64,000 bases of DNA from Psilocybe cubensis (taxonomy: Eukaryota), in assembly GCA_017499595.2 (NCBI GenBank), contig CM039003.1, positions 1,178,001-1,242,000 of the forward strand. Reading direction: 5' to 3'. A program made the position numbers and the translations under genes. The notes beneath the pieces are model-generated. The model ran no database searches. It saw nothing but the letters and a program-made list of their open reading frames with translations, and was not told the DNA's origin. Below are positions 14,085-59,622 of this stretch, piece after piece (the stretch's first letter is position 1; each line of letters starts with the position of its first letter).

Positions 14085-14288
14085 TCAATTCTTGCAGCAA
14101 TACGCCTTGTGCCCCGTCCAGCAGCACGACCCAGTGCCGCACGCGTTCTCGTTCGTCTGCTTGTACCCCGACGGGCAGGCGCCGTGGCAGAACGGCGCCG
14201 TACCGGTCCAGTAGCAGTCGTCGGCTAGGACGGTGCGCGCGGAGAGTAGCAGGGGGAGGACGAGTGTCAGGAGGGTGAGAGGGTGCAT
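14085..14288 (-). CDS. Small secreted cysteine-rich peptide (8 Cys)
   Basis: Hydrophobic signal MHPLTLLTLVLPLLLSARTVLA then 45-aa DDCYWTGTAPFCHGACPSGYKQTNENACGTGSCCWTGHKAYCCKN. Confidence 0.85.
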   Translation of the reverse strand: MHPLTLLTLVLPLLLSARTVLADDCYWTGTAPFCHGACPSGYKQTNENACGTGSCCWTGHKAYCCKN

Positions 14289-14899
14289 TGTGTTGGGTGT
14301 TGGATCTTGGTGGAGGTTGTTGTTTGTTGTTGGTTGGGTCTGTGGGAGGAGGTGAGTGGATGGGTTTGGGTTAGGGAGGTGGAGGGAGGCTTACGAGGAA
14401 GTGGAGGTTGTGTATCGGGATTAGAGGTATGAGACGTAGGACCTTTATAAATTTGATTAGATTGCTAACGGGACGCTGCTGAGCTTGAGAGAATACGGAG
14501 ATGGGCGTAGGATGTGCTCGGTATTTGGCTAGCAGTAGCCCCGTCGTTATTGCGCCCTGTGGAAGATAAAGTGTCCATAGCGGTATGTTGGGCGCTAGTA
14601 AGCGTGATGTGAACGTATATTAGTGTTGGCTGGTATATAGAGTTGTAGATGTAACACCGCAACATACCGTTACAGTTGGATTTAGTGAGCTTGGTTCGGA
14701 TTCATGCAGATTAGCTTGGTTTGAGGGAACCATAGCTTATAAGTGGTAGGATGAACGCTGTTAAATGGGCCGTACATTTACAATCGACCAAGTCGATGCC
14801 AATGGGACTATCCGAAAAAAGATGTGCGATTGCTGGTTGTAGAGAAGGTAAACTCCGCGATATCCCGCGCCTCATTGTAGCTCTTCTCTCATAGCATCG

Positions 14900-15573
14900 A
14901 TGTTCACAACAGCGCGCCTGCGCCTCCGCGGATCGACGCCCAACGACGCCGACAACCTCCTCGCGCTGTACAACGACCCACGGGTCGCACCGTGGATCAC
15001 AGAGGGATACATCGTGCCCAAGCACGCATCGTACCTCGAGACGATCAACGCGTTTATCGCCTCGTGTGTGCTCTCATGCGTCGTCGAGGAGCTGGAGAGT
15101 GGAGAGTTTGTCGGGCTGTGCAGCTTTGTCGGGCAGGGCGAGGCGAAGAACCGGAATGCGATCATGTGCATTGCTCTGCTGCCTAGGCATTGGAGCAAGG
15201 GGTACGGGGCGGAGGTGATGGGTTTTTTGATTGACTATGCGTTCCATGATATGGGGATGCATCGGGTGTCGCTGACGGTGTTTGAGGGCAATGAGCGGGC
15301 TATGGCGCTGTACCGGCGGTTGTGAGTTGTTCTAATACAAATTGTATCGCTTGCTGATAGGAGTACAGAGGGTTCGTAGAAGAGGGGAGACACAGGAAGA
15401 TTGTGTGGATGAATGGCGGGTGGAAAGATACGTACTACATGGGCATCTTGGAAGACGAGTGGAGAGAACGCAAACAGCGCCAAGCCGAAGCGGAACAGAC
15501 TTTGTCTCTTACCACCACCACCACCACCAACGCTAATAACACTACTGATACTGAAGTCTTTCACGATGGATAA
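14900..15573 (+). CDS. GNAT (RimJ/RimL-like) N-acetyltransferase, 2 exons
   Basis: MFTTARLRLR..., acetyl-CoA motif HWSKGYG, MHRVSLTVFEGNERAMALYRRL|GFVEEGRHRK...YYMGILEDEW; intron 15322-15368; stop TAA at 15571-15573. Confidence 0.9.
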
Positions 15574-17471
15574 TGTCGTCCCTTCCCACCCACATCCAGA
15601 TCCCATACGAACCGCCCTTTCTCCCAGTGCTGCTCTCCCTCGCCGCCTATCTCTATCTCCTCTCTACCACAAATGCCCTGTCTGAATCCATCACCAACGC
15701 CCCTCTCCTTGGACCCCTCCTCACAGGCATCCTCCTAGGACCCAGTGTCGCCGGTCTCATCACTCCCGCACTCCAAGAGTCCCTCATCGCCCTCGGCTAC
15801 ATCGGCCTCCTCCTCATCGTCTTCGAAGCCGGGCTCTCCACTCACCTGCCTCTGCTCTTCGCAAACGCCGGCCTCAGCTGCGCAGCCGCCCTCACCGGCA
15901 TCCTCGTCCCCATCGCCCTGAGCATGGCACTCCTTAAGAGCGCGTATGGCTACACATCGCTGCAGTCCTTCGCCGCAGGTGCCGCGCTCTGCTCGACGTC
16001 CCTCGGTACGACGCTCGCGCTGCTGACGCCGCCGCTGCGCCGTACGCGGGTGGGCAGTGTACTCATGGCTGCCGCGTTACTGGACGATATCGTTGGTCTG
16101 GTCATTGCGGGGATTATACCTGGGCTGGCCGGGGCGGAGGCGGGCGGGGAGGGTGTGAAATGGGAAACGATCGTGCGCCCCATATTGGTCTCGATTGCGT
16201 TTGGAGCAGGCACGCCTGCGCTGGCGTGGATCGTGAGGAAGAGCGTCTTGTATCTGATGTCAAGCGCCGAACGAGCACATGGACAACTGGGGGCGCATCT
16301 ATCCACGTCTGCGCGCATCGGGAGAAGGGTGCTGGACCTGATACAAGACACCCGAACCCAGCTCTTTTTGACTGTGCTGGCACTTTCTGCGTTCGTCGCG
16401 GGGACCAAGTATGCAGGGACGAGCGAACTGTTCGGGGCATACCTCGCTGGCGCGTTGCTGGCGTACATATTCACTTTCGAATCTCTTGGTGACGCTACAA
16501 CCACGCGCGTTGAGGTTAACGATGCGGAATCTCCGAAGTCACCGTCGGTGTCACCAGTGTCTGATCTGTCTGAAACGACTGCAGCACACGCGCCCTCCTC
16601 ATCACCACCACCCTCCGACATACACGAACCAGAATCCAACCACTACATCAGCCATGAACCAATCAACCTCCCCTTCGCCGCATTCACCGCACACCTCCAG
16701 CCGATTCTCGCGCCGCTCCTGGGGCCCATCTTCTTTGCATCCATTGGAGCGGCGATACCCGTCGGGTCGCTGTTCACTATTCATATCGCAGGAGGAGGAG
16801 TGTCGCACGCGGTGGTGTGGAAGGGGCTGGTATATGCGCTGCTTATGGTGCTCGCGAAGATGGTGGTGGGAGTATGGATGCTTGTGTGGCCCGCCCCCCG
16901 CGGTCGGGCTGGGCACGGGCGAAAGCGCGAACGAGCCAGAAGCAGTTGGCTTACTTCGATCCGTGCGGTATGGGATAAGATGAAGAAGTTGAGGAGTAAG
17001 TGCAGCGAGAGTGAAAATGGACTTGGGTATGGGTGTGCGCGAGAGGCGAGCACCGTCGAGGAGGGGGGTGTATGTGAGCACTCGCCTGATACCGCTAAAC
17101 GTGGGCGCGCCTCGACGGCGTTGGAAACGAGGCGTACCGCCGGTTCCGAACATCACGACGAACACGATCTGGGTGACGGCGGCCATGTGCACGAGCCCTC
17201 GCCTCGCCGTGCGGCTGCGCTCCTTGGTCTCGCGATGGTCGCGCGCGGGGAGATCGCGCTCATTGTTGCGCAGCTTGCTAGGCCTTTGCTTGTTGATGGC
17301 AGACTTGGACTTGGACTTGGAGGGGACGAGGAACCGTATGCGGTGGTGATTTGGGCGATTGTGGTCAGCACGTTTGGGGGTGCGGTGGGTGTTGGGATGT
17401 TGTTGGGGAGCTGGAGGAGGCGGAGGCGGGATGGCGGGGAGGAAGTAAGTGGAGTGGGATTTGGGATTTGA
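15573..17471 (+). CDS. Cation/H+ antiporter (Na+/H+ exchanger family), intronless
   Basis: 632-aa multi-TM ORF with GYIGLLLIVFEAGL, LCSTSLGTT, AAALLDDIVGLV, PIFFASIG, AMVARGEIALIV. Confidence 0.92.
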   Translation: MSSLPTHIQIPYEPPFLPVLLSLAAYLYLLSTTNALSESITNAPLLGPLLTGILLGPSVAGLITPALQESLIALGYIGLLLIVFEAGLSTHLPLLFANAGLSCAAALTGILVPIALSMALLKSAYGYTSLQSFAAGAALCSTSLGTTLALLTPPLRRTRVGSVLMAAALLDDIVGLVIAGIIPGLAGAEAGGEGVKWETIVRPILVSIAFGAGTPALAWIVRKSVLYLMSSAERAHGQLGAHLSTSARIGRRVLDLIQDTRTQLFLTVLALSAFVAGTKYAGTSELFGAYLAGALLAYIFTFESLGDATTTRVEVNDAESPKSPSVSPVSDLSETTAAHAPSSSPPPSDIHEPESNHYISHEPINLPFAAFTAHLQPILAPLLGPIFFASIGAAIPVGSLFTIHIAGGGVSHAVVWKGLVYALLMVLAKMVVGVWMLVWPAPRGRAGHGRKRERARSSWLTSIRAVWDKMKKLRSKCSESENGLGYGCAREASTVEEGGVCEHSPDTAKRGRASTALETRRTAGSEHHDEHDLGDGGHVHEPSPRRAAALLGLAMVARGEIALIVAQLARPLLVDGRLGLGLGGDEEPYAVVIWAIVVSTFGGAVGVGMLLGSWRRRRRDGGEEVSGVGFGI

Positions 17472-18533
17472 TATATAGACTGAGCAAGGGTTGAACGTTG
17501 AAAGTTTGAAACGTTGAGTTTTGTATATGAACACGAACAACCCTGCAGGCAACCGTCAGGTCAATTCGAATTTTCAAATTACCCCAGACTTCTTTTCTGC
17601 GGCGTCGATGACATATGTTACCCGCTCGCCCGCTCGCTCGCGTGTAAATAACGTTATTCCTCTCTCTCAAGTTTTTGTTATGTAAAGGCACCACATTTCT
17701 AGTCTAGAGAGGCAGCGCTAGCTTGTTGGACTTACATTTTGATGGAGGTGGAGCGCGTCGCGTTGTTGTCGCGTGTCGCGTGATCTTGGCATTCCAGTCA
17801 AATATATATACGCGTGGTGGCGGTGGTCGTGGTGAGGTTGGTAGGGGGGTTTGCATTATCATTATGTCAAAGTGGAGCGCTAGGACAGTGCTAGAATTTT
17901 ACGTTGTTGAAGACGTGTACATACGTATATCCGGGGCGGTATAACCTGAGTGTGGTGTTGGTACCTCAGGCTATGCGTACCGCATTTGAGATTTGAGATA
18001 TTCAGACTTTTTGAGGTGAGTGTGTCAAGGCCTTGGGTACTAACGGGTGTGGATGCAGTCGTTTTCTTTGATAGTCTAGTTTATATAGTACCCAAACTAC
18101 ACGTTTTTAAGGTACTGGACGACATCGGACACGGTGCACTTTACCACACCACAAAGTGAAAACCAAAAAAAACAAACCGACGAGATCAGTGGCGGCGGCG
18201 GCGGCGTTGATGACGAGGATTATATCATGACATGGCTTTTTGACATACTCTGTCTTGGTCGGGACTCGGATTCGGAGGTCGGGTGCTAACAGTGCTAACA
18301 GTGGCAGTGGGAACCGACAAAAAAAGGTCTCCCCGCCTCTCCCCCGCCCCCATCCCAAGGCCAATCTCGCGCGGCACTCCACGCTACTTACTATGAGTAT
18401 GACGGCGGACGCCACGGGGTGACTGCGGCGCTTTTTCGATCATGATCGTTTGTTTTTTGATCATGATGAGGCGCATCTGGTATGGGCGCTTGTCGAGATG
18501 AGATGAAATGAAATGGGTGATCGATCGGCTGTA

Positions 18534-26687: not shown

Positions 26688-29391
26688 TTATGGCAAATGA
26701 GTACTAATGTAAATATCGTGTTCGTGTCTCATCTGATTCCGATTAGCATTCTTTCTCTTTTGAGTTTCATAGGCCACACAACAATTTTCGGTTGGCGTCA
26801 ATAGCTCGCCATCCACTATTTGATCAGCTCCTCGATCAGTGGGCAGTACTTGTTTGACCACCAATACCACGCCATTGGTATCCTTCCTAGAATGCACACG
26901 TCTGACGCATTTACCCGCGTGTTCTCCTTCAATGATGGCTAATAACCCAAAGTCGTGCTTGATGGTAGGATGTTTGGGCTTTATATGGGTCGATTCAATC
27001 CGTAACGTCCGCTTCGAATTGGGTGTAAATCGCATCATGCACAGCTGCCCATCCACGTCCTCCTGAACGATTACAAACAACGGAGAAACGTGTCCATCGA
27101 CGGTTGCCTCTTCCACCGTCAAAGGAACTCCAATCAGCTCTCGTTTCAACAAAAGATTACAAGGAGTGGTTAAAGATGCAACGTTGGTACCGTCGCTTGA
27201 ATTTACGACGACGGTTCCTATGCTAATGCTTGTTAAATCTTCTGAATGGTCAGATGGATCCCACGCAGGCGAGGTGTCCTCAATAGTATCAGGCAATGGT
27301 GTATGTCTGCCACTGTCAGCGCTTTCAGTTCCTGTGGTTATTATGATCGATGGGTTGGCGAAGTTACGAGACTGGTGGACAGCGTTCGAATCATACGTCT
27401 TCGACAGGCTTAGAGGCTCAAAGGTACTACAAGCCGTGAGCGCGAGTACAAATCGGTAAATGAAATACGCTTACCTGTATTCCAGTACGTCGTCTCTGTT
27501 CAAAACAATTTTCTTGAAGGGATTCGACGGATCATATCGAGTCGGCTCTACAACTAAACGCAACTCAGGTTGACCTGTTCTTGGGCTTACGGACTGTAGT
27601 ACCTCGGCGACAATGCCGATTAAGCCTTTGAACGTATGATGTACCTTGCTCACTATCACAGTTACACCTTTCCAACGATGATATCGGGTCGTGTGTGATG
27701 TTGGGATAAGCGCGAGGAGCGATGAAGGCTGACATGTCGTCGCATCTCCCAGAGAAACGAAATTCCTGTGCATATATATAATCTGAGATGTATGCATGAG
27801 CCAGAGTATATATACGGTTAAATGACAAATACTTGCCTCCAACATCGAGTCGGCTGTATTGATTTGCTGGTCTTTTGTAGTGCCTTGCTTATCGATTAGT
27901 TGTATTTCATCTCCCTTGATGTCCACGACCCAACCCGATCGTCCAGCATTAACGCCAGCGTCAACCCCTACGTAATCCCCTATTTCGAAATGTTTTAAGA
28001 TGTCACTCCATACGGTGCGTATTGTTGTCAACAGCTGGGTCGTAGTTGTATCAACTCTGTGGATTTCAGTTTCGTTGTAATGTTGACCAGTTTCGTCATG
28101 GTCGCAGCCTTTGTTGTATATATCGACATCGACCATATTATCGTCGTCGGCTTGCGCAATGACTCCGAGCCAACCTGTAGATCTCATTACCACCCATTCC
28201 ATGGTTCGCATGATCCATTCCTTTGGCTTTGGTATCGGCGCGTGATGGAGTGCGGGATGCCCACTCATACAAAATGATGTATACGTCACGTAACTCAGAC
28301 CTTCACGACATGAGGCAACGTGTCTGGGATCGTAGTCCACCCGGGCCAAACCATGCTCAAAGATCAGATCACCTACGCGATAGACAGATGCTCTGCCTGA
28401 TTCTATGTATAAATGAGAGTTACGAAGGCCTGTCGGATCGAATAGCTTAGGCGCGGGCACCGCAGTGTATGTCTTCCGTTTACGAGATGACTTCGTTTTG
28501 GTGGACACGTACTCGTAACGGGGGATCATAAGCATTGACACCCCCCACGATCCTTTCGAAACGACAAAGCCTACATCGCCTTTGTATACACCTCGTTTAA
28601 CCTTGAGCCATTTTCCGACCGATAGGTTCGTAATGTCCCCTCCCATGTACAACAGTTGCTGAGCCTCATTCTTATCGATCGGACTCAGGAGCACGTCCGT
28701 AGTTTTTACGATGATGCCGGGCGATCTTTTGATAAGGTCAATCATAGGCTGATCCATCAAACATTCCAAGTATATGTATCCATGTACAGAACTGCGTGAA
28801 AACGCGGACCGAATATGATGTTCTCGGCGCGAGTTTTTGAGTAAAGAAGCGACCGCGATTTCTTCGTATCCGACCTTACGTATTGTTCATCGATATGGTT
28901 GGCAACACACAAATTTAATTCGATGGTATTAAACTTACTTTACATCCAATCCTCCATGTAGGATAGTCCGTGGGCAGATTTTCGAAGCCCGAATCAGTGT
29001 TTCCGTGCGGTGACAAAACAGTAGGATTGTCAGCGTTTGAATACAATGGTTCCACACCCCGGTACATATCAGAGGCGGGCAGTGAGTGAGATCTACCACG
29101 TGTTCTCTCTTCAATTTGTTGAATTACGAGGGCCAGTCGGTCTCTCTTTGTAACAGGAATGGGTTTGTCCATTGCCACAGATGATGAACCGTCACAATCT
29201 TCATGGGATTGAGTTCCGTCGTCGATGAAGCATTCTGCGAGTAAATTTGGTTTATCTCGTATGTTGGAATGACATGAGACTGAGTAAAACGAAATATTAT
29301 GCGCACCAAATTCGTCAGATTCGGCTGAACCATCCTCTGAATCTCCGTGATCGACATTCGCTTCTAAGTCCAAGAATGGGTTGGGAGCCAT
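26688..29391 (-). CDS. Helitron cargo: Spt5-like transcription elongation factor paralogue (acidic N-term, NGN, KOW repeats)
   Basis: NPFLDLEANVD...FIDD (Spt5 N-term); PTWRIGCK|VGYEEIAVASLL...IRSAFSRSSVHGYIYLE (NGN); VGKWLKVKRGVYKGDVGFV...MIPRYEY...PKLFDP (KOW1); KHFEIGDYVGVDAGVNAGRSGWVV (KOW); HTFKGLIGIV (KOW); HIKPKHP...IIEGEHAGK (C-terminal KOW-like). Confidence 0.85.
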
Positions 29392-29993
29392 AGGTAGTCT
29401 AAAAAGAAGCAGAAAAAAAATTAAAAATTTGCCGTTTATATGTATAGCATTGCGTGAGTAGATATAGACATACTAAAGCAACGACTCTGCAAAGCAGTCG
29501 CTGACAGGTTTAAGGTGTTCTTCAAAATGAACTATCGATTTGAACACATTTAGAATACCATCAATATTTCTATCATATATCGTAATATAACCTACAGCCT
29601 AACAAATATTGTATATTAGCCTTGAAGATACGAATACTGGTACGATGTGGCAGCAAATGACAACGTCGAAAAAGGTGTTCAAGTCGGATAGGCACAGTTC
29701 TTAAACAGAGCGGTGAACGAAATTTCGGCAAGTTCCGATATCCCTTTGATGCGAAGGTATTAAAGGAACATGTACGACATTCTCCCACGCTTTTGGATCG
29801 TCCTTTCAACCACACGATGCTCGATGCAATGTAGTCTATGGGTTCAGATTATACAGCTGAGTCTAATAGACTGATACGCTGCGACACTATCGAACGATAA
29901 ATACCATACTGATATGAATATAAACAGTTGTTATCTGAGCATGTATCAACTGAGGCCTCCATAACCATAAAACACTTTGGATAAATTTTCATC

Positions 29994-32900
29994 TTATTCC
30001 CTCGCGTAAATAGCATACAATGCATGTTTCAAGTTTCCCCCATTTACGGAAATGCGTAGCCATTGAGATACATCATTAACAAGGTCATGAACATTACCCT
30101 CCTTTACGCATCTATTTCCAGTAGTAATGCCGTCGTGGAACCACACGTCCCCTTGCAGGTCAACATACCGAGAAACAAAATGATGTTGCCCGCCGTAGAC
30201 AACCCCAGTAAGCTTATACTCTACGTTGAAACTATCCGATTTGAACATAATATCAGGGTTTATAGCAAACCGTGGCGAGCATATATCCACTGTCATAATG
30301 TAAGGTAATCGTTCAACCTTATGGCATAGCGACATATATACGATATGCTGATTTTGTGCACACGAAGGGCAATTCTTCGAACTCAATCGTTGAGCATCGC
30401 TCAGGTTAAAACCTAAACTGTCTGAAATAGAAGACACCTCCTGGGAGTCGTCGTGGAAAACGCCAGTGCGTGCCACACTTATATATTCGCCTAGTCGCAT
30501 TACGGGTCTTTGGTCATTGTAGCCGCATTTACTGCACACGAGAACAGACATTCCAGAAGATCGCTGGCCCATCACAGCGGTCATAACTCTGTCAATGTAT
30601 GTCATATTTGGACCCATAGGAAAATCAAGCGGGCTGCGTGAGTGCATATCGTTTCTGACGTCGTTTCGTGCGCTCTCTAGAGAAATTGATCCATTCTGCA
30701 CAAGTGCGAATTGTCCGCTGAGTCTGTCTAATAACGGTGTCAAATCACTGAATCTATTGGTCCACATCTCAGGTGCACTTATCCATAGGTTATATAACAC
30801 GGTAAAGATGGAGTCGTAACTGCAACTGTAGTTGTCCGCGTCCCACTTTGTACCTACAGGTAGGACCGCAAACTCGGAGGGTGTGCTTAGCAACATTCGT
30901 TTCCTCGGTCCTATACAGTCTGAGCGAATTGGTTGGCGCTTATTGCGCTTATCTTTTGCCCTGTCGGTGACAATTGCCTTAACACTGTTGAGAGACCAGG
31001 TGCCGTCCTTTTCCGGAGTTCTGATAAGCTGCTTTGATGAAGAGACTGCCAAGGTAGGATGCCAGTCTGTACCAATGGATTGCGATACGTCGAGAAGCAT
31101 GAAAGACCGAATTGTCGGATTCCTTAATCCATGCAACACGCCGTCTGGAAGCTGTCCATTGTATTTCATGGTGGTGATATGATCTAATATATTGAGTTCA
31201 CGGAATTCCTGGCGCAGGTGCCCACTAATACCCTTTGTAATCTTAGACGCATCGAATCTACCGAGTAAGATGGTACCACTGGCGTTCGAACTTCTAGATA
31301 CACAGGTGTAATAAGACGAATGATCCTTACAATGATCTAAATGTATCAAGTTATAATCTCGCGTCTTACCTTGAGACGAATAATCGGTCATGGCAAAATT
31401 GGGCAGCACTAATACCTGCTGGCGGTTTACATTGATTTTTGTGCCAGACTTGAGAGTACATGTTACTCGAGACGACGTTCGCGTAAGTGGAACAACATTA
31501 ACAGGCAAGTCAGCTAATGATACAGGGTTCGGCGGTCTGATTAATTCCACGAACAGCGTATCAAGTACAGGTCTACCAAACGCACCAACAGAAGATTCCC
31601 ATCCTACGACGACAGCCTCCTGTCCTTTAGTGATACACAACTCTGTGGCGTCGTTATGCCGTATCATAACTGGCAGACCTACGCACAGAGAAAGTTTTGC
31701 TGGCACTTGTTCGCTAGAACAGGCGCTGCGACCCCATAGGGCTTCCTGAAGACGCTGGGACATCTTTGTCTGTTTGGTTGCTTTAGACGATCCTGATGGT
31801 CGTCCGCGAGGCCTGCGAGTTTCTCCTTCTTGTGTACCCAGACTATCGACAGAGAAAAAATGATGCAATGTACGTCCGCTCTCTTTAGCGTATCTTGCGA
31901 TGCCCTGCTCATTGAACCTATCCTTTTGATTATTCCACGCAGTGATAACAGATACGTTGCGAAAAGCAGGGTCAGTCAATATAGGTTTACCTTCAATAGT
32001 CGTCAGTTTAGAAGCTAACCTTGACTTGAGGAACGATATATCAGCGTCTGTACAGGCGGCATACCGCATGTTTTCAAGTGCAGTGCGCAACTTTGCGTCT
32101 TCCTCAGTCTGCGTTTTTTGTCTCATGTTTTGTTTTAGAATAACGACAGTCGTGAATTGGTGCCAGAATATCTTGCCTAGAGTAGCTTCTTGCTCGGACA
32201 CCTTCATGCGAGCGTCTTGCGTATGTTTAATGGAAGGACTATAAAAGGGGAGATTACCTACCGGCGGTAGCTGAGCGAAGTCACCAGCTAAGATCATTGA
32301 TATACCTCCGAACAGTGTATCGTCGTTAAACACTTGTGACAGACGTCTACTAATGGCATATAAATCCCTCGACGACAGCATAGATATTTCATCAATAAAG
32401 ATATACTTGACACCCTTTAATCGAGCTCGTACGTCATTTATTACTGCGACTTCGTTTTTTGAAAAGTCTTGACCACGATCCGACTTGGACCGTATTCCTA
32501 ATACACTGTGATAAGTAGATCCGTTGAGGAGTGCAGCAGCGGTACCTGTGGGTGCGAGAACCACAAATCGGTGAGATTCGCCTCTCGACTCAAACATATG
32601 AATGATAGATTTGATCACTTGACTTTTGCCAGTACCGCCCATGCCACCGAGATGCATCCTCAGCTGACCAGGCGACAGCAAACTAGCGTGATTGGCAACA
32701 ATACGGAAAGCCCTTTCCTGTTCCGTATTCAAGGTGAAATCGGCGACTGTAGAATCTACTAACACATTATGTTCCATTTGCTTTGCCTTGTACGACCTGA
32801 GCAGATAATCCGAAGAAACTACTTTGACGTCATTAGTAGACTCTTCGTTGGAAATATGAATGTTTGTTATATCATCTGAGGGATCTGAAGGCACGTAACC

Positions 32901-35900
32901 GGACAACTTCTGTTTAAACAGTCTAATTTTTTCAGCTTTTATTAGAGATGCCCAGCTCGTATGCGTCTTGTATTCAGCAGGCCTGAACATGCTGACTTCT
33001 TGACATGTAACATCGCTAGAGGCGTTAGAAAACAATCCTGCAGATTGTATGATGCCATCTACTTCTCGCTTTAACAACACCTCTCTGCGGTATGCCTCAC
33101 CAATCTCTTCATAATCTAAATGATCTTCACCGAATTCAAGGCCGACAAAGTCGTTGTATTGATCGTCGAGACCGCAACCATCAGGATAGAGTTCATCCGT
33201 GTAAACATCTTGTTGTTCTCCGTCTTTCCTTCTTAACTGTGCGTGAAAATCGTCTCTGTCGTCTAAACATTCATATCGCAGATTAAAGTTATCCATTAGT
33301 TTCAACTGTCGGTCGGAAAAAGCGTAAATGGTGAATGCATGTTCCCAAGTCTGATGCAATGATTTCAAATCTAACCCAGACCTCCAAGGTTTGAACAAGG
33401 TCAGCATACTGCAACAATAATACTCTCTGTCGCCTTTGTCGCGCCGTGGAAGGGGACCGCCTAGAAAATTGGGGACAATATTGTGCGCTCGGGATGAGTC
33501 ACATTTGACTACGTGAGTGGAATAAAGAGGGTGCTCCTCAGTGAAACGTTCAAAACTTCTTTTGTTTATTTTAATATTTTTTCGCACACCGTCATATTTA
33601 ACACGTTGATCAGAATCATCATCTGCAGGTATACCAAGACATGCATCAATGAAATCTTCCATCCCCCCGCCTTCACGTATGTCGGACGCATGATCATCTT
33701 CGAAGGTGAGTGTTTCACTACGCAAACGCTCCATTTCATTTTTAGTGAGCTTACGGCGCTCATAAGATCTAATCCAGTCGAATAGAGACATGTCTTCTTG
33801 AGTGACTGGGCGGTATTTATAATCATCTACATTACTAGAACCTACATAATGACCGTCATGTCGAGCTAATATAACTTTCTGTTCTTCATCTTCAGCATTT
33901 TCTAGATCCTCTACGGTAGGTAGGTGGGCGGCTTGGTCATCAGTGATACCGGATTTATGACTGCTCCTTGCGTCACTTACAAAACTTCTCCACCAAAAAG
34001 GTACAAAGGTATGATCAGTGTAATGATCAGGGTTGCCCAATAAATACAAGGAGGCCATCGGAGAACCTATCTCCATCTTAGAAGACAGAGAGTTGACAAT
34101 TTTAAGCATCAACCTTCTGCCTGCGTCTTTACCTTCAATCTTGACATCGTCTTTAACTTTTTTTTCTTCACGTTCAAACACGTCATACATAGAGGTAAAT
34201 ATCTGATACGTTTTCAATGCGGGTTTGCTAATATAGTCTGATATATAATATATTATTGCTTTTATCGAAGTACCCGACAACAGACATGTCACGTCGGTAT
34301 TACTTCTTGTGAGGTACGACAGCGGAAGAGTAAAGGTATTTAACATCGCTTCCAACTTTTTCAAAAATATGTGACCGTCGACGTGATCGACTTGAGACTG
34401 TTCGTACAGCCTTCGCGGAAATCGTGCTTTACAATTTCCATTCCAATCCAGGCAACCTTTCGGGCCCTTAGGCATATTTTTTATACCTTTTGATCCGTCA
34501 GGGTCATCAATTTGCTGACCGTATGAAACAGTGCATCTGTGCACATTGGACTTCAATATGATATCATCGACTGTAGTTTCGTAATTGTCCCACCATTCAG
34601 CATTAGAAATGCATGATGTGCAGTGGTCCGGACCATTGGAATCTTGACAAGCATGTTCTACCGGTATAGGGAGTGTTAGAGTCGGATCTGCGTAACTGGA
34701 ATTTACAGCCTCGTCATCCTCTTGTATAATTGAATGAAGTCCATCAATTTCTTTGTCGTAAATATGTGGCACGCGGTCTTTAACAGTCTGCATGTTTCCT
34801 GTAAGAAATTCGCCTTGATGACAGCCTTCCAAATATGATAGAAGGCTCGCCTGAAATGCAGAGTCGTTGTTCATAATACGGTCACGGATTTGCTGTGGAG
34901 ACAAGCAATTCTCAATCCATAGTAACATATGCAAATGTAAGGTGAGTCTTCCCTGCTGTTCTACCGTACCATAGTACGCTGAAGTTTTACCATACAAACC
35001 TCGATGAATATTGGATCCGACGCCTAGCACGTGTTTAATAAACAATTCAATTATGAGATGAAAAAAACGGGCAGCCGATACGGGATTCTGTGCAACCAGT
35101 CTATTCCTTTCAGAAGAAGGTAATATGTCTGGTGTAAAGGTCAGCTGTTCTTTGGCATAATATATTGATATAGGATGTCTGTTATCGGCAGGTGACAAGG
35201 TTATAAACCATATTGGGCAACCTTTGAAAGAAAGCAAAGACCATATCTCATTGCGCATATACTTTTTAGACGTGATTGACCCTTTAACATATCCTCCAAC
35301 GTGGTCAAGATCATCTAAAAGTTTGTAACAGTCTTTCTCACTGTCTGTTTCAGGTGATACATGGTCCCCATTTACAAGACGAGAGGAAATGTCTTGAAGA
35401 ACCGTTTTGTCTATAGAGAGCAATCTTTTAGATATCGCATCAAAATTACGGCGTTTTGCAACAAGAAAGCTACCAGTAACGCCACCTTTCAGTTGCTCGT
35501 GATTGAATGCAATAATAGGAAAATAAAGGTCGCGCTGGAAACGCTTATCATGGTGCATAAGCAGTATTCGCTTATGTTCTGACTCTGAAAGTTTACGCTT
35601 ATGACAATGCTGACCTATTCCACCATAACCGTAAGGAAATAGCCAAGGGAACATCTGCGGATAGGCCTGAGGATTATCGTACATAGACTGCGGTTTTGGA
35701 TCATGCCCAATAGCTAGCATTTTGCCTTCATTTTCTATGTGTTGCAAGGCTTTTGCCTTCAAAGCTTGTATGGACATATTGCCATAGTCTGTTCCACTCA
35801 AGCCATGGACAGTAAACGGACAAGGTCCGTCTACAGTTCCTTCATCTTCGCCTTCGTCGTGTAGACTCATTGTAGACTCCATACGATTAGTACCGTTGCG

Positions 35901-38510
35901 CTGTCTGTAGTCTACAGCTACGGGGACACCTATCAGCGGGTAAGACTGGAGATTTTTCTTGGATATTTCAAGATCAATATAATCCTTATGGTTAAGTTTC
36001 AACCATTCCAGAGCATCTGCGACCTTATTGCGACGCACTAGCATTGGACTACGCTTGAACTCTTCTTCCGTGGGTTGGGTTGGTCCTGTAAATATAAAGG
36101 CAAGTACCTCGTCAAGTTCTGGCTTTGAAGGAGGTAATTCATGATACACTTTCAGCGTTGGATTAGAGTACATGATGACATTTGCTGTCATTTTAGCCCG
36201 CCCAGAGGAAACTCTGACCAGACAGCGATTATGCCGAATGCGAGCAATCATCATGCGCTCTGCAAACGAAAGATCTTGCAGCTGAGAAGGTATTTTACCT
36301 AACCACAAATGATTTGCAAGCGAATGTCTCGGCACATGACCTTTTTTCAACGCAGCAGAGCAAGTATCGCATACATGGTTACATGCAGGATCGATCACAG
36401 GGCCCGGGATGTCCTTCACCGGGTCGTCAGGATGTAATCTCTCTACACGGGTAGCTCCCTCAACTGCGAGTATGTCAAGGGGATGATCAAACATAGACAA
36501 GTGAGTTAAATTATGCAAAGGCTGCAGCAGACCGCAGACCATGCAGCCTGCTTCCTCCAGTAGAGATGCAGATGAATCAGCGCAAAATCCATTGATGATT
36601 TCCTCTATCAGAAGCTTTGACGGTGGTTGTGGCGGAAACACATGGTCGTTTGAAGTGTGGTCAGAGTCTGATGTGGATACAAAAGCATCACCGTTGAGCA
36701 TGTCAACATCGGAATTAGCAGATTCTGCGCCTGCCTGCCTCTGACGTTCTCGAGATGCTCGTTTATGTAGAACATTTTGGTTACGATTATGCATGATTGA
36801 CTCTTCTGAATTGACTGTACTAGGTATTGCCTCAAAGATATATAAATGAGTGGAACATATACCACATTCATGACCATCTGTTAATTTTATCAGAGCAGAT
36901 TTTTTGGTCTTGGAATTAAATGATGTAATACCGTGTTCTTTCAGTACATCCCGAAGCTCGCTTGAAGTGAGCCATTTGGTTGCACTTTGTATAGAAAATC
37001 GACAAAGAACTAGACGGCGTTTGTGGGGTGCGGACGCTTCGGCAGAGAGAAATGACTCTAAATCACGTATGTACGGCATATACCTAACGAACTTGTATGT
37101 ATCACTATAATTAAACGATGCTGTGCCACTATAGGGTACAATATGACTTTCTATTAAAGCAGATGAAACGAAGCGAGAAAAATTTACAGCACTGTCTGTA
37201 AGTTCAAACTGCCGATCTGGATTACAAGAAGATGAATTGCTCTTAATTTTTCTATCTGACACTGATACCACACGTTCAAAAATACAGACATTACGAAGGC
37301 AAGTTCCGCACACATGATCACGCAAAAGTTCAATGGCATTGCCTCTATTTGTGGTTGAATTGATGCCGTACACTCCATGTAAACTTGCAATAGACCTAAT
37401 TTCAGAAACAGACAGCCAACTAGCAGTGTCAAAGAGAGAGAACCTAGCAACTATTAAATCAGATATATTGTCAATGGAAGTTGAAATGTGAGCGTCTGTA
37501 GCAAGGTACTTCACAAATCTGTATTTAGTTTTAGCTTGAACGGAGGCACATCCCGTATCTTGTACCACACGGTATCGCAAAATCTCTGAGCTGACAACCT
37601 TTGAAACACCGCCACCTCCGCCTTGCAAGACATCGGAAGGATGATAGTATGAGCATTCAGAAACATTAGCAGTAAATGAGATGTAGTGGAAATAGTTGAG
37701 ACCGAATAACCAGGAACACTGAAACGGATACATTAGAACGCCCTTCGATACTATATTAATGAAGGGATATTTCTCTGACCAAAGACGAGGTTGCGTGTAA
37801 TGTCTGTCGAGCGTGAATTGATGCAAGGCGCATCTTGGCAAAATGGCTACCAGGCACCTATTATATTCCCACTTCCTGAGATGATTACGTTGGAGCAACA
37901 GAGATACTAAAATAGAAACTCTACGTGTATACGTTGCAGGCGTGAATCTTAACCACAAATAAGCCGACATTGAATGACAATCAATATATATGAAGCGGCG
38001 AAATTGCGAGTGCAACAAACGCACATTTCCATACGAGTGGGACTGTTTGACGGGTATCTCAGAAGCGGACGTAGTAGTACGATTCAAGCAATGCATAACA
38101 TGAACTAATACTACAGTAAGACGCACTCTACAAACTTTGTGCCCACTTGATACGCTGCTAGATCTAGTACATGTACGACTACGCAATAGATTATTGCCAG
38201 GAAATCGAACATCGTAGGTTGGAAATTCCCCACAGGGTAAGCAAAAGTCTATTGACCAATTATTTGTTTTAAACAACTGTTGATTGACAGCTATACAACT
38301 ACTAAGCATCGATATTGTTCGAGAATCACCAGCATAATTGGATGCGTTCAAGGAGTGTACATTAATGCAACATTGTATGTGGCCACATAGGATTCCTACA
38401 AAATAGCGACAAATGTCAGATCATACACAGTACACATAAGGAGAAGATAACTCACCCCAACCAGAAACTAAAATAAAAAGAGCGTAGAAATGAAGTGATG
38501 CGGCGAGCAT
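29994..38510 (-). CDS. Helitron RepHel transposase: HUH-Y2 Rep + PIF1 helicase + C-terminal USP-like Cys peptidase
   Basis: Open frame of 2785 codons plus an in-frame first exon (38510-38456; intron 38455-38396). DUF6570-like SLANHLWLGKIPSQLQDLSFAERMMIA; Rep motifs WFITLS, YGTVEQQGRLTLHLHMLLW, YISDYISK; helicase GMGGTGKS, APTGTAA, IDEISM, GDFAQLPPV, MTDYSSQGKT, YTCVSR. Confidence 0.95.
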
Positions 38511-56316: not shown

Positions 56317-59020
56317 TTATGGCAAATGAGTACTAATGTAAATATCGTGTTCGTGTCTCATCTGATTCCGATTAGCATTCTTTCTCTTTTGAGTTTCATA
56401 GGCCACACAACAATTTTCGGTTGGCGTCAATAGCTCGCCATCCACTATTTGATCAGCTCCTCGATCAGTGGGCAGTACTTGTTTGACCACCAATACCACG
56501 CCATTGGTATCCTTCCTAGAATGCACACGTCTGACGCATTTACCCGCGTGTTCTCCTTCAATGATGGCTAATAACCCAAAGTCGTGCTTGATGGTAGGAT
56601 GTTTGGGCTTTATATGGGTCGATTCAATCCGTAACGTCCGCTTCGAATTGGGTGTAAATCGCATCATGCACAGCTGCCCATCCACGTCCTCCTGAACGAT
56701 TACAAACAACGGAGAAACGTGTCCATCGACGGTTGCCTCTTCCACCGTCAAAGGAACTCCAATCAGCTCTCGTTTCAACAAAAGATTACAAGGAGTGGTT
56801 AAAGATGCAACGTTGGTACCGTCGCTTGAATTTACGACGACGGTTCCTATGCTAATGCTTGTTAAATCTTCTGAATGGTCAGATGGATCCCACGCAGGCG
56901 AGGTGTCCTCAATAGTATCAGGCAATGGTGTATGTCTGCCACTGTCAGCGCTTTCAGTTCCTGTGGTTATTATGATCGATGGGTTGGCGAAGTTACGAGA
57001 CTGGTGGACAGCGTTCGAATCATACGTCTTCGACAGGCTTAGAGGCTCAAAGGTACTACAAGCCGTGAGCGCGAGTACAAATCGGTAAATGAAATACGCT
57101 TACCTGTATTCCAGTACGTCGTCTCTGTTCAAAACAATTTTCTTGAAGGGATTCGACGGATCATATCGAGTCGGCTCTACAACTAAACGCAACTCAGGTT
57201 GACCTGTTCTTGGGCTTACGGACTGTAGTACCTCGGCGACAATGCCGATTAAGCCTTTGAACGTATGATGTACCTTGCTCACTATCACAGTTACACCTTT
57301 CCAACGATGATATCGGGTCGTGTGTGATGTTGGGATAAGCGCGAGGAGCGATGAAGGCTGACATGTCGTCGCATCTCCCAGAGAAACGAAATTCCTGTGC
57401 ATATATATAATCTGAGATGTATGCATGAGCCAGAGTATATATACGGTTAAATGACAAATACTTGCCTCCAACATCGAGTCGGCTGTATTGATTTGCTGGT
57501 CTTTTGTAGTGCCTTGCTTATCGATTAGTTGTATTTCATCTCCCTTGATGTCCACGACCCAACCCGATCGTCCAGCATTAACGCCAGCGTCAACCCCTAC
57601 GTAATCCCCTATTTCGAAATGTTTTAAGATGTCACTCCATACGGTGCGTATTGTTGTCAACAGCTGGGTCGTAGTTGTATCAACTCTGTGGATTTCAGTT
57701 TCGTTGTAATGTTGACCAGTTTCGTCATGGTCGCAGCCTTTGTTGTATATATCGACATCGACCATATTATCGTCGTCGGCTTGCGCAATGACTCCGAGCC
57801 AACCTGTAGATCTCATTACCACCCATTCCATGGTTCGCATGATCCATTCCTTTGGCTTTGGTATCGGCGCGTGATGGAGTGCGGGATGCCCACTCATACA
57901 AAATGATGTATACGTCACGTAACTCAGACCTTCACGACATGAGGCAACGTGTCTGGGATCGTAGTCCACCCGGGCCAAACCATGCTCAAAGATCAGATCA
58001 CCTACGCGATAGACAGATGCTCTGCCTGATTCTATGTATAAATGAGAGTTACGAAGGCCTGTCGGATCGAATAGCTTAGGCGCGGGCACCGCAGTGTATG
58101 TCTTCCGTTTACGAGATGACTTCGTTTTGGTGGACACGTACTCGTAACGGGGGATCATAAGCATTGACACCCCCCACGATCCTTTCGAAACGACAAAGCC
58201 TACATCGCCTTTGTATACACCTCGTTTAACCTTGAGCCATTTTCCGACCGATAGGTTCGTAATGTCCCCTCCCATGTACAACAGTTGCTGAGCCTCATTC
58301 TTATCGATCGGACTCAGGAGCACGTCCGTAGTTTTTACGATGATGCCGGGCGATCTTTTGATAAGGTCAATCATAGGCTGATCCATCAAACATTCCAAGT
58401 ATATGTATCCATGTACAGAACTGCGTGAAAACGCGGACCGAATATGATGTTCTCGGCGCGAGTTTTTGAGTAAAGAAGCGACCGCGATTTCTTCGTATCC
58501 GACCTTACGTATTGTTCATCGATATGGTTGGCAACACACAAATTTAATTCGATGGTATTAAACTTACTTTACATCCAATCCTCCATGTAGGATAGTCCGT
58601 GGGCAGATTTTCGAAGCCCGAATCAGTGTTTCCGTGCGGTGACAAAACAGTAGGATTGTCAGCGTTTGAATACAATGGTTCCACACCCCGGTACATATCA
58701 GAGGCGGGCAGTGAGTGAGATCTACCACGTGTTCTCTCTTCAATTTGTTGAATTACGAGGGCCAGTCGGTCTCTCTTTGTAACAGGAATGGGTTTGTCCA
58801 TTGCCACAGATGATGAACCGTCACAATCTTCATGGGATTGAGTTCCGTCGTCGATGAAGCATTCTGCGAGTAAATTTGGTTTATCTCGTATGTTGGAATG
58901 ACATGAGACTGAGTAAAACGAAATATTATGCGCACCAAATTCGTCAGATTCGGCTGAACCATCCTCTGAATCTCCGTGATCGACATTCGCTTCTAAGTCC
59001 AAGAATGGGTTGGGAGCCAT
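56317..59020 (-). CDS. Spt5-like cargo protein, copy 2
   Basis: Copy of 26688-29391. Confidence 0.85.
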
Positions 59021-59622
59021 AGGTAGTCTAAAAAGAAGCAGAAAAAAAATTAAAAATTTGCCGTTTATATGTATAGCATTGCGTGAGTAGATATAGACAT
59101 ACTAAAGCAACGACTCTGCAAAGCAGTCGCTGACAGGTTTAAGGTGTTCTTCAAAATGAACTATCGATTTGAACACATTTAGAATACCATCAATATTTCT
59201 ATCATATATCGTAATATAACCTACAGCCTAACAAATATTGTATATTAGCCTTGAAGATACGAATACTGGTACGATGTGGCAGCAAATGACAACGTCGAAA
59301 AAGGTGTTCAAGTCGGATAGGCACAGTTCTTAAACAGAGCGGTGAACGAAATTTCGGCAAGTTCCGATATCCCTTTGATGCGAAGGTATTAAAGGAACAT
59401 GTACGACATTCTCCCACGCTTTTGGATCGTCCTTTCAACCACACGATGCTCGATGCAATGTAGTCTATGGGTTCAGATTATACAGCTGAGTCTAATAGAC
59501 TGATACGCTGCGACACTATCGAACGATAAATACCATACTGATATGAATATAAACAGTTGTTATCTGAGCATGTATCAACTGAGGCCTCCATAACCATAAA
59601 ACACTTTGGATAAATTTTCATC

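What the first reader, a model, noticed from the sequence alone, without database searches (positions are those of the whole stretch)
14900..17471. Prokaryote/virus-style TAATG stop-start overlap between two nuclear genes (GNAT acetyltransferase and cation/H+ antiporter)
Seen: after splicing intron 15322-15368, the GNAT frame runs ...TTTTTTNANNTTDTEVFHDG to TAA at 15571-15573. The last A is the first base of the ATG (15573-15575) opening the 632-aa intronless antiporter, whose N-terminus (IPYEPP.L..LL....YLYLL) looks like the genuine start. There is no intergenic DNA. Established: UAAUG termination-reinitiation is used by the fungal hypovirus CHV1 and by influenza B, and polycistronic transcripts have been reported in mushroom-forming fungi. 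Inference: a bicistronic mRNA with translational coupling (or -1 frameshift fusion); the (ACC)n/AC-rich tract just upstream may be an unstructured reinitiation element.
Basis: partly seen in the sequence, partly recalled or inferred. Interest (0 to 1): 0.75.

Follow-up and report, generated by a model that had tools for sequence, protein, structure and literature searches.

The report
Two mushroom genes abutting at TAATG
In the mushroom Psilocybe cubensis an acetyltransferase gene ends on the very base where an ion-antiporter gene begins, a real and unusually tight arrangement that public annotation wrongly merges into one protein, but nothing yet shows that the second gene is translated by virus-style restarting.

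Summary
A two-exon GNAT acetyltransferase (ATG 14900, intron 15322-15368, TAA 15571-15573) shares one base with the ATG (15573) of an intronless 632-codon Na+/H+-exchanger ORF. An RNA-derived contig splices the 47-nt intron and runs unbroken across TAATG.

The antiporter ORF is 100% identical to part of an NCBI Psilocybe cubensis protein. That model fuses both genes through a predicted 53-nt intron (15504-15556), which neither of the two contigs from runs X1 and X2 that cross it removes. P. cyanescens has a second fused model. Its residues W-M-M imply TGATG at the same place.

The pairing looks Psilocybe-specific. In 6 of 6 other Agaricales species listed for both genes, they lie on different contigs.

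Known reinitiation signals are missing. There is no UGGGA motif and no folding beyond shuffles. UAAUG alone failed in a fungal reporter.

The likeliest reading (about 0.45) is two separate cistrons with overlapping transcripts. Under it, GNAT reads through the antiporter's leader to the first in-frame stop. True termination-reinitiation (about 0.2) is not excluded, because the leader is full of AUGs. Long-read RNA and mapping of transcription start sites (TSS) would decide.

The parts
14900..15321 (+). GNAT acetyltransferase exon 1 (140 codons plus 2 bases)
   Evidence: Pfam Acetyltransf_3 E 7.5e-18 and Acetyltransf_1 E 2.3e-16. 76% identical to a Hebeloma protein and 90% to the P. cyanescens model.
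15322..15368 (+). 47-nt intron (GTGAGT...ACAG)
   Evidence: Skipped exactly in a contig of run X2 (table 5). Retained in the contig of run X1.
15369..15573 (+). GNAT exon 2, including stop TAA at 15571-15573
   Evidence: The first 31 codons match the conserved end of the domain in 10 of 11 orthologues fetched; the eleventh is an unspliced ORF call. 4 of 4 strain variants fall at third codon positions.
15496..15570 (+). Low-complexity C-terminal extension of GNAT with no counterpart in orthologues; holds (ACC)6 at 15511-15528
   Evidence: 36 residues follow the conserved ...DEW motif here, against 6-22 in the 10 full-length orthologues.
15504..15556 (+). 53-nt intron of the public fused gene model (GTCTCT...GAAG); not supported
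   Evidence: Deduced from P0001 against the window. Kept unspliced in the contigs of both X1 and X2.
15566..15685 (+). Out-of-frame upstream AUG (A at -3, G at +4) opening a 39-codon ORF that overlaps the antiporter start
15571..15575 (+). TAATG stop-start overlap
   Evidence: No variant is listed between 15537 and 15581 in the runs laid (40 of 200 rows shown).
15573..17471 (+). Intronless cation/H+ antiporter CDS (632 codons plus TGA)
   Evidence: Pfam PF00999 E 2.5e-28. 341 relatives found, closest 54-56% identical. RNA contig has no joint from 15369 to 17417.

Best explanation
These are two independent cistrons brought head to tail in the Psilocybe lineage. They are neither one gene nor a proven operon.

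The GNAT gene lost its ancestral stop, which in orthologues lies about 11 codons after the domain. It now reads on through roughly 75 nt of A/C-rich sequence, probably the antiporter's own leader, until the first in-frame stop. That stop happens to use the A of the antiporter's ATG.

The transcripts of the two genes necessarily overlap. By analogy with other Agaricomycetes, read-through RNAs covering both ORFs probably coexist with an antiporter mRNA that starts inside the GNAT gene. The antiporter is translated mainly from that shorter mRNA by ordinary, partly leaky, scanning.

Shown: the anatomy, the reality of both genes, the real 47-nt intron, RNA continuity across the junction, the unspliced state of the annotated 53-nt intron, and the lineage-restricted pairing.

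Inferred: the internal transcription start, the route of translation, and the history of the tail.
For: Anatomy and domains.

Orthologue comparisons: the GNAT tail is 36 residues against 6-22 in 10 orthologues. Antiporter orthologues start at the same place.

Lineage restriction:
- Only 2 of the 120 listed antiporter relatives carry GNAT domains, both from Psilocybe.
- The search for longer GNAT forms found only those same two fusions (4 hits among 311 candidates, the other two unrelated GNAT-only proteins).
- In 6 of 6 other species listed for both genes, the contigs differ in length. The species are Crassisporium funariophilum, Tephrocybe rancida, Tricholomella constricta, Cyathus striatus, Agrocybe chaxingu and Gymnopus androsaceus.
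- A Hebeloma-like contig, L001, has no antiporter in the 1.1 kb after its GNAT.

RNA: the X2 contig splices 15322-15368 and runs on through TAATG.

Precedent: in Agaricomycetes co-transcribed genes are also transcribed independently (abstract and passages, passages). In G. lingzhi 1165 gene pairs have overlapping transcripts, 1074 of them in opposite orientation, which leaves 91 on the same strand. Gene predictors there never output overlapping genes.

Reinitiation signals are absent, and UAAUG alone is insufficient in a fungus.
Against: No transcription start inside GNAT has been seen.

A strong-context AUG at 15566 lies 7 nt before the antiporter AUG and opens an overlapping 39-codon ORF. 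Scanning from any start upstream of 15566 would be diverted.

Only about 75 nt separate the presumed ancestral GNAT end from the antiporter ATG. That is very little room for a promoter outside coding sequence.

The stop-start geometry seems to be retained in P. cyanescens, although the antiporters are only 56% identical. This could reflect selection for coupling.

The contig-length argument assumes the best hits are orthologues.
Confidence: 0.45

Rival explanations
1. Genuine translational coupling. Ribosomes that translate the GNAT frame, from the full ORF or from an internal GNAT-frame AUG on a shorter RNA, terminate at UAA and a fraction reinitiate at the overlapping AUG. This would be the main route to antiporter protein.
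For: TAATG geometry, and inferred TGATG at the same site in P. cyanescens.

The antiporter is the only copy seen for either Psilocybe among the 120 relatives listed, and it is under purifying selection (23 of 36 shown variants synonymous). So it must be translated.

14 AUGs lie between the GNAT AUG and the antiporter AUG, which makes leaky scanning from the cap implausible. Seven of them (15164-15439) are in the GNAT frame, and all of those ORFs end on the antiporter AUG.

Coupled UAAUG translation does work in a fungal cell for hypovirus CHV1.
Against: No UGGGA motif and no structure beyond shuffles.

Known cases after long ORFs need an upstream element (passages).

An EGFP-UAAUG-luciferase construct gave no luciferase in Cryphonectria. 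CHV1 itself reaches only 2.5-4.4%.

Reinitiation falls with upstream ORF length (passages); here that length is 208 codons.

The pairing is not ancestral, so no old dedicated signal is expected.
Confidence: 0.2
2. A real fusion protein. Splicing of 15504-15556 removes the stop and shifts into the antiporter frame, as in the public 823-residue model, giving an antiporter with an N-terminal acetyltransferase domain.
For: Public models fuse the two in both Psilocybe species. The 53-nt span has GT..AG ends, a CTAAT branch-like motif and a typical length.
Against: The contigs of X1 and X2 both keep the 53 nt, although contigs can drop rare isoforms.

The donor GTCTCT lacks the G at +5 and the purine at +3 of the confirmed intron's GTGAGT. 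The general fungal consensus is recalled, not tested.

The P. cyanescens model reaches the same acceptor from a different donor and deletes the conserved exon 2 found in 10 of 10 full-length orthologues. This looks like a predictor forcing one ORF.

Strain variants in the tail region follow the GNAT frame.
Confidence: 0.07
3. Other non-canonical entry on a shared RNA: cap-dependent leaky scanning past GNAT, whose own AUG has a weak context (T at -3, T at +4), or internal landing on the unstructured A/C-rich tract.
For: Weak GNAT start context and a 124-nt AUG-free stretch at 15442-15565. The region is unstructured. Leaky scanning explains algal bicistronic loci, some of which have overlapping stop and start.
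Against: 14 intervening AUGs, several in strong context. In algae a single restored AUG in ORF 1 abolished ORF 2 expression. No internal-entry element is established for fungal cellular mRNAs (abstract listed for PMC5874917; text not read).
Confidence: 0.06
4. A programmed -1 frameshift fusion of GNAT and antiporter.
For: The antiporter frame is -1 relative to GNAT and is open from 15555.
Against: No X_XXY_YYZ heptamer in 15555-15570, and no stimulatory structure downstream.
Confidence: 0.01

Closest known systems
Polycistronic or read-through transcription units and same-strand overlapping genes of Agaricomycetes (Gordon et al. 2015, PMC4503453; Ganoderma lingzhi annotation 2024, PMC11590231)
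   Same: A mushroom-forming fungus with two complete same-strand ORFs of unrelated function, very closely spaced, and RNA that is continuous across both at contig level. Gene predictors mis-handle such loci.
   Different: Reported pairs average 434 bp apart in G. lingzhi; here the spacing is -1 nt. A single molecule spanning both ORFs has not been shown here. The pairing is seen only in two Psilocybe species.
UAAUG coupled termination-reinitiation of hypovirus CHV1 (PMC2699510) and TURBS-dependent reinitiation of caliciviruses and influenza B (review PMC10275272)
   Same: The same pentanucleotide geometry, a long upstream ORF, and (for CHV1) a fungal host cell.
   Different: The viral cases need an upstream element: a structured RNA complementary to 18S rRNA, or the p40 region. 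None was found here. This is a nuclear, spliced gene pair, and no dependence of ORF 2 on ORF 1 translation has been shown.
Nuclear bicistronic loci of green algae (PMC7896298; PMC11291117)
   Same: Cellular mRNAs with two ORFs and very short spacers. Some Auxenochlorella loci have overlapping stop and start.
   Different: Algal ORF 1 is short and AUG-poor, and ORF 2 is reached by leaky scanning. Here ORF 1 is 208 codons, with 14 AUGs before ORF 2.
Public gene models P0001 (P. cubensis, 823 aa) and P0002 (P. cyanescens, 756 aa)
   Same: The same DNA. P0001 is 100% identical to the antiporter ORF and to GNAT exon 1.
   Different: The models join the two genes with introns that the RNA contigs do not support (P0001) or that delete a conserved part of the GNAT fold (P0002).

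Membership tests
TURBS-type termination-reinitiation | Stop and start codons overlap or lie within a few nt (UAAUG / AUGA) | tested here: met
   TAATG at 15571-15575.
TURBS-type termination-reinitiation | Conserved motif complementary to 18S rRNA upstream of the stop (UGGGA; the letters are recalled, the principle is) | tested here: not met
   No TGGGA in 15369-15600.
TURBS-type termination-reinitiation | [quoted passage not shown] | tested here: not met
   z +0.49 for 15470-15590 and z -0.73 for 15369-15640. Pseudoknots were not searched.
TURBS-type termination-reinitiation | Downstream ORF translation depends on translation of the upstream ORF to its stop | not testable with these tools
   Needs reporter or Ribo-seq data.
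Agaricomycete polycistronic transcription unit | A single RNA molecule contains two or more complete same-strand ORFs | tested here: inconclusive
   The X2 contig runs from 15223 across the junction to beyond 18000. But it lacks the GNAT 5' part, and a contig is not a molecule.
Agaricomycete polycistronic transcription unit | Member genes are also transcribed on their own | not testable with these tools
   No raw reads, long reads or 5' end data. No holder run is on record as RNA.
Agaricomycete polycistronic transcription unit | Gene configuration conserved in related species | tested here: inconclusive
   Kept in P. cyanescens. Not kept in 6 of 6 other Agaricales with both genes listed nor in L001.
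GNAT (Acetyltransf_3 / RimJ-RimL-like) acetyltransferase | Match to the family profile above the curated cut-off, and a complete domain | tested here: met
   66 bits against a cut-off of 25.4. Exon 2 supplies the conserved C-terminal strands seen in 10 orthologues.
Cation/H+ exchanger (PF00999) | Match to the family profile above the curated cut-off | tested here: met
   99.5 bits against a cut-off of 26.2. 341 relatives.
Single fused GNAT-antiporter gene | Mature RNA with one continuous reading frame across both domains | tested here: not met
   The 53-nt span 15504-15556 is retained in the contigs of X1 and X2. Rare isoforms cannot be excluded.
Programmed -1 ribosomal frameshift | Slippery heptamer X_XXY_YYZ in the overlap window | tested here: not met
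   None in 15555-15570 (read).

The most novel reading that the evidence does not exclude
A cellular, virus-independent case of termination-reinitiation in a fungus. After a Psilocybe-specific rearrangement removed its promoter and leader, the only cation/H+ antiporter of this type in the genome would be translated by ribosomes that finish a GNAT-frame ORF at UAA (UGA in P. cyanescens) and restart on the overlapping AUG. It would do so without a TURBS-like element. This would be a eukaryotic operon-style coupling caught soon after its origin.
Probability: 0.17. Interest if true: 0.8.

Novelty: new member of a known kind. Interest (0 to 1): 0.4.

Why it matters
If the ordinary reading is right, the value is practical. 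Two public Psilocybe annotations carry a chimeric acetyltransferase-antiporter protein that probably does not exist as the main product. The locus is also a clean example of why fungal gene finders that forbid overlaps create false fusions.

If coupling is real, it would be a rare cellular example of reinitiation after a long ORF. It arose recently enough that species with and without the junction can be compared. That makes it a tractable system for asking what a eukaryotic ribosome minimally needs in order to restart.

Tried and rejected
- **RNA runs.** No RNA holder is listed for the stretch. X1 and X2 are only guessed to be RNA. X2 is shown to be RNA-derived by the spliced joint.
- **Parts without cover.** X2 has no contig upstream of 15223. 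X1 has separate contigs 14816-15064 (depth 9.7) and 15042-17417 (depth 64.8). I first read this as a hint of an internal start. Contig depth and contig ends cannot show that, so it is not used as evidence.
- **Whole genome of the window.** Not held. I could not measure how often such overlaps occur genome-wide.
- **Cluster members of P0001 and P0002.** The database was switched off, so other annotations of the same locus were not seen.
- **Metagenome scan with the GNAT alignment**. 597 stretches matched, 531 were relatives and 80 were kept. Only L001-L004 matched all 140 residues at 41% identity or more; the rest look bacterial. tblastn with the antiporter found 0 hits in the 80 loci. P. cyanescens DNA could not be obtained, so the TGATG junction remains an inference.
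- **Pfam on 10 neighbouring ORFs.** Nothing found.
- **Earlier-findings look-ups.** Nothing found.
- **Literature.** A search on how P. cubensis was annotated gave nothing usable. Searches for a fungal nuclear stop-start overlap found viral, bacterial, algal or review papers only. One search found 49 papers, of which 15 were listed; one search found 40, of which 12 were listed. The unlisted papers were not examined. Supplements were not opened.
- **Stop-codon read-through.** Rejected. Past TAA the GNAT frame runs 54 more codons out of the antiporter frame.
Full report
**What is in the sequence.** On the + strand an ORF starts at ATG 14900 and runs to 15321. It is interrupted by a 47-nt intron (15322-15368, GTGAGT...ACAG) and resumes at 15369. 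It ends with TAA at 15571-15573, which makes 208 codons after splicing. The last A of that stop is the first base of ATG 15573-15575. This ATG opens an uninterrupted 632-codon ORF that ends in TGA at 17469-17471. Exon 1 matches the GNAT families Acetyltransf_3 (E 7.5e-18) and Acetyltransf_1. The downstream ORF matches Na_H_Exchanger PF00999 (E 2.5e-28).

**Both genes are real and are read as described.** Ten full-length GNAT orthologues of 178-198 residues carry the equivalent of exon 2. An eleventh sequence fetched is an unspliced ORF call.

Seven antiporter orthologues begin within about 17 residues of the conserved N-terminal motif that sits at residues 4-11 here. The antiporter frame is closed by TGA at 15552-15554. 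ATG 15573 is therefore the orthologous start.

Four public runs of the same organism label were laid on 14300-18000. A 3463-nt contig of run X2 skips exactly 15322-15368 with GT..AG ends, so it derives from spliced RNA. It then continues without any further joint through exon 2, TAATG and the antiporter to 17417, and on past 18000. This confirms the intron and shows the antiporter is intronless at least to 17417.

The laid strains differ from the window by a few per cent. Of the 200 variant rows, 40 were shown. Of those, 4 of 4 in GNAT exon 2 lie at third codon positions (3 synonymous). In the antiporter 26 of 36 lie at third positions (23 synonymous). No variant is listed between 15537 and 15581.

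**What the databases call it.** The antiporter ORF is 100% identical to part of an 823-residue NCBI protein from Psilocybe cubensis, named as an N-acetyltransferase. That protein carries both GNAT and PF00999 domains. Comparing it with the window shows that the model removes 15504-15556 as a 53-nt intron (GTCTCT...GAAG). Removing it deletes the stop and shifts into the antiporter frame.

Neither the X1 contig nor the X2 contig removes those 53 nt. The donor also lacks the +3 purine and +5 G of the confirmed intron.

A 756-residue P. cyanescens model is also fused. It joins the exon-1 donor directly to the same acceptor region, and so deletes the conserved exon 2.

A manual re-annotation of Ganoderma lingzhi states that the prediction tools used never output overlapping genes. 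I therefore read both fusions as products of the gene finder, not as evidence of a fusion protein. A rare spliced isoform is not excluded, because contigs drop rare variants.

**How old and how widespread the pairing is.** Among the 120 antiporter relatives listed (341 found), only the two Psilocybe models carry a GNAT domain. A search for longer forms of the GNAT found those same two fusions, plus two unrelated GNAT-only proteins (4 hits among 311 candidates).

Six other Agaricales species were listed for both genes: Crassisporium funariophilum, Tephrocybe rancida, Tricholomella constricta, Cyathus striatus, Agrocybe chaxingu and Gymnopus androsaceus. In all six the two proteins lie on contigs of different length. 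This assumes the best hits are orthologues.

A metagenome contig, L001, has a Hebeloma-like GNAT (80% identity). It holds no antiporter in the 1.1 kb after the gene. None of the 80 loci fetched holds one.

The juxtaposition therefore looks derived in the Psilocybe lineage.

In P. cyanescens the residues just before the conserved N-terminus are W-M-M. Their codons are unambiguous. Read in the GNAT frame of P. cubensis they give G-stop with TGA sharing its A with the second ATG. So the overlap seems to be retained as TGATG, although the antiporters are only 56% identical. This is an inference from a protein model. I could not obtain the DNA.

**Where the overlap probably came from.** After the conserved ...DEW motif the orthologues run on for 6-22 residues. 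P. cubensis runs on for 36, through a low-complexity stretch that includes (ACC)6 at 15511-15528. TAA at 15571 is the first in-frame stop after the domain, and the next lies 54 codons further on.

The simplest history is that the rearrangement, or a later mutation, removed the GNAT stop. The frame then extended through A/C-rich sequence that may be the antiporter's leader, as far as the first stop available.

**Tests of translational coupling.** According to the review passages read, known reinitiation after long ORFs needs more than the pentanucleotide: a structured element with complementarity to 18S rRNA, a pseudoknot, or upstream coding sequence.

- There is no TGGGA in 15369-15600 (the motif letters are recalled).
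- The 121 nt before and around the junction fold no better than shuffles (z +0.49). Nor do the 272 nt from the exon-2 start (z -0.73).
- In Cryphonectria, EGFP and luciferase separated by UAAUG gave no luciferase. The natural CHV1 junction, with its p40 region, reached 2.5-4.4%.
- There is no X_XXY_YYZ heptamer in 15555-15570, the only place where a -1 shift would join the frames.
- Read-through of TAA stays in the GNAT frame.

None of the known mechanisms of coupling or fusion has its signature here.

**Why the question is still open.** The spliced RNA holds 14 AUGs between the GNAT AUG and the antiporter AUG. Seven of them (15164-15439) are in the GNAT frame, so their ORFs all end on the antiporter AUG. 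One, at 15566 with A at -3 and G at +4, lies 7 nt before the antiporter AUG and opens a 39-codon ORF that overlaps it.

Leaky scanning from the GNAT cap is therefore implausible. In green algae a single restored AUG in ORF 1 abolished ORF 2 expression. Even a short private leader would carry the 15566 AUG.

The antiporter is the only copy seen for either Psilocybe among the relatives listed, and it is under purifying selection, so it must be made somehow.

The RNA contigs cannot tell one molecule from overlapping molecules. The same X2 contig also runs more than 1.2 kb past the antiporter stop, into a region whose longer ORFs are all on the other strand.

**Verdict.** For comparison, polycistronic pairs in G. 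lingzhi average 434 bp apart and other neighbours 1356 bp.

I put about 0.45 on two cistrons with overlapping transcripts and an antiporter mRNA that starts inside GNAT. This follows Agaricomycete precedent, where co-transcribed genes are also transcribed on their own and 91 same-strand transcript overlaps follow from the counts reported for one genome (1165 pairs, 1074 of them opposite).

The remaining weight is about 0.2 on real termination-reinitiation, about 0.07 on a fusion isoform of importance, and small amounts on other routes.

It is a new instance of closely packed fungal genes with an extreme spacing, plus a likely annotation error in two public genomes. It would become much more interesting if start-site mapping finds no internal promoter.

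Noticed in passing
window 26691-38420 and 56320-63999 (minus strand): Two copies, about 29.6 kb apart, of a giant Helitron-like element. One has an uninterrupted 2808-codon ORF (DUF6570, Helitron_like_N, PIF1 helicase) at 29997-38420, with three companion ORFs at 26691-27470, 27474-28886 and 28918-29472. The same set recurs at 56320-59101, and the second helicase ORF (59626-63999) runs off the window.
   Followed up: partly
window 17417-17513: In X2 (RNA-derived) and X4 (DNA) these 95 nt are replaced by 59 other letters. The stretch covers the last 18 codons and the stop of the antiporter, so the antiporter's C-terminal end differs between strains.
   Followed up: no
window 16522, 16599, 16789: In-frame insertions or deletions (+9, -3, +3 nt) in the antiporter's low-complexity loop region in other strains. 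They fit fast-evolving loops between conserved membrane segments.
   Followed up: no
window 17472 to about 18700: The X2 RNA-derived contig continues more than 1.2 kb beyond the antiporter stop. ORFs of 90 codons or more in that region are all on the minus strand and have no Pfam match. This is either a long 3' UTR or a merged convergent transcript.
   Followed up: no
window 14085-14390 (minus strand): A small cysteine-rich ORF (101 codons stop to stop), divergent from the GNAT gene about 500 nt upstream. It has no Pfam match and may be a small secreted protein.
   Followed up: no
L001 1700-1830: The Hebeloma-like GNAT on this metagenome contig has a frameshift inside exon 2 relative to all orthologues: a stop after ...WRDTLF, with the conserved ...LEDEW motif continuing in another frame. 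This is either a pseudogene or an assembly error.
   Followed up: partly
window 15537: All four laid runs have C where the window has T. The change is synonymous in the GNAT frame. In the antiporter frame it changes an upstream TAA to CAA, while the closer TGA at 15552-15554 still closes that frame.
   Followed up: yes
window 14822-14842: A 6-codon upstream ORF lies in the likely GNAT leader; X1 cover begins at 14816. The GNAT AUG itself has a weak context, T at -3 and T at +4.
   Followed up: no
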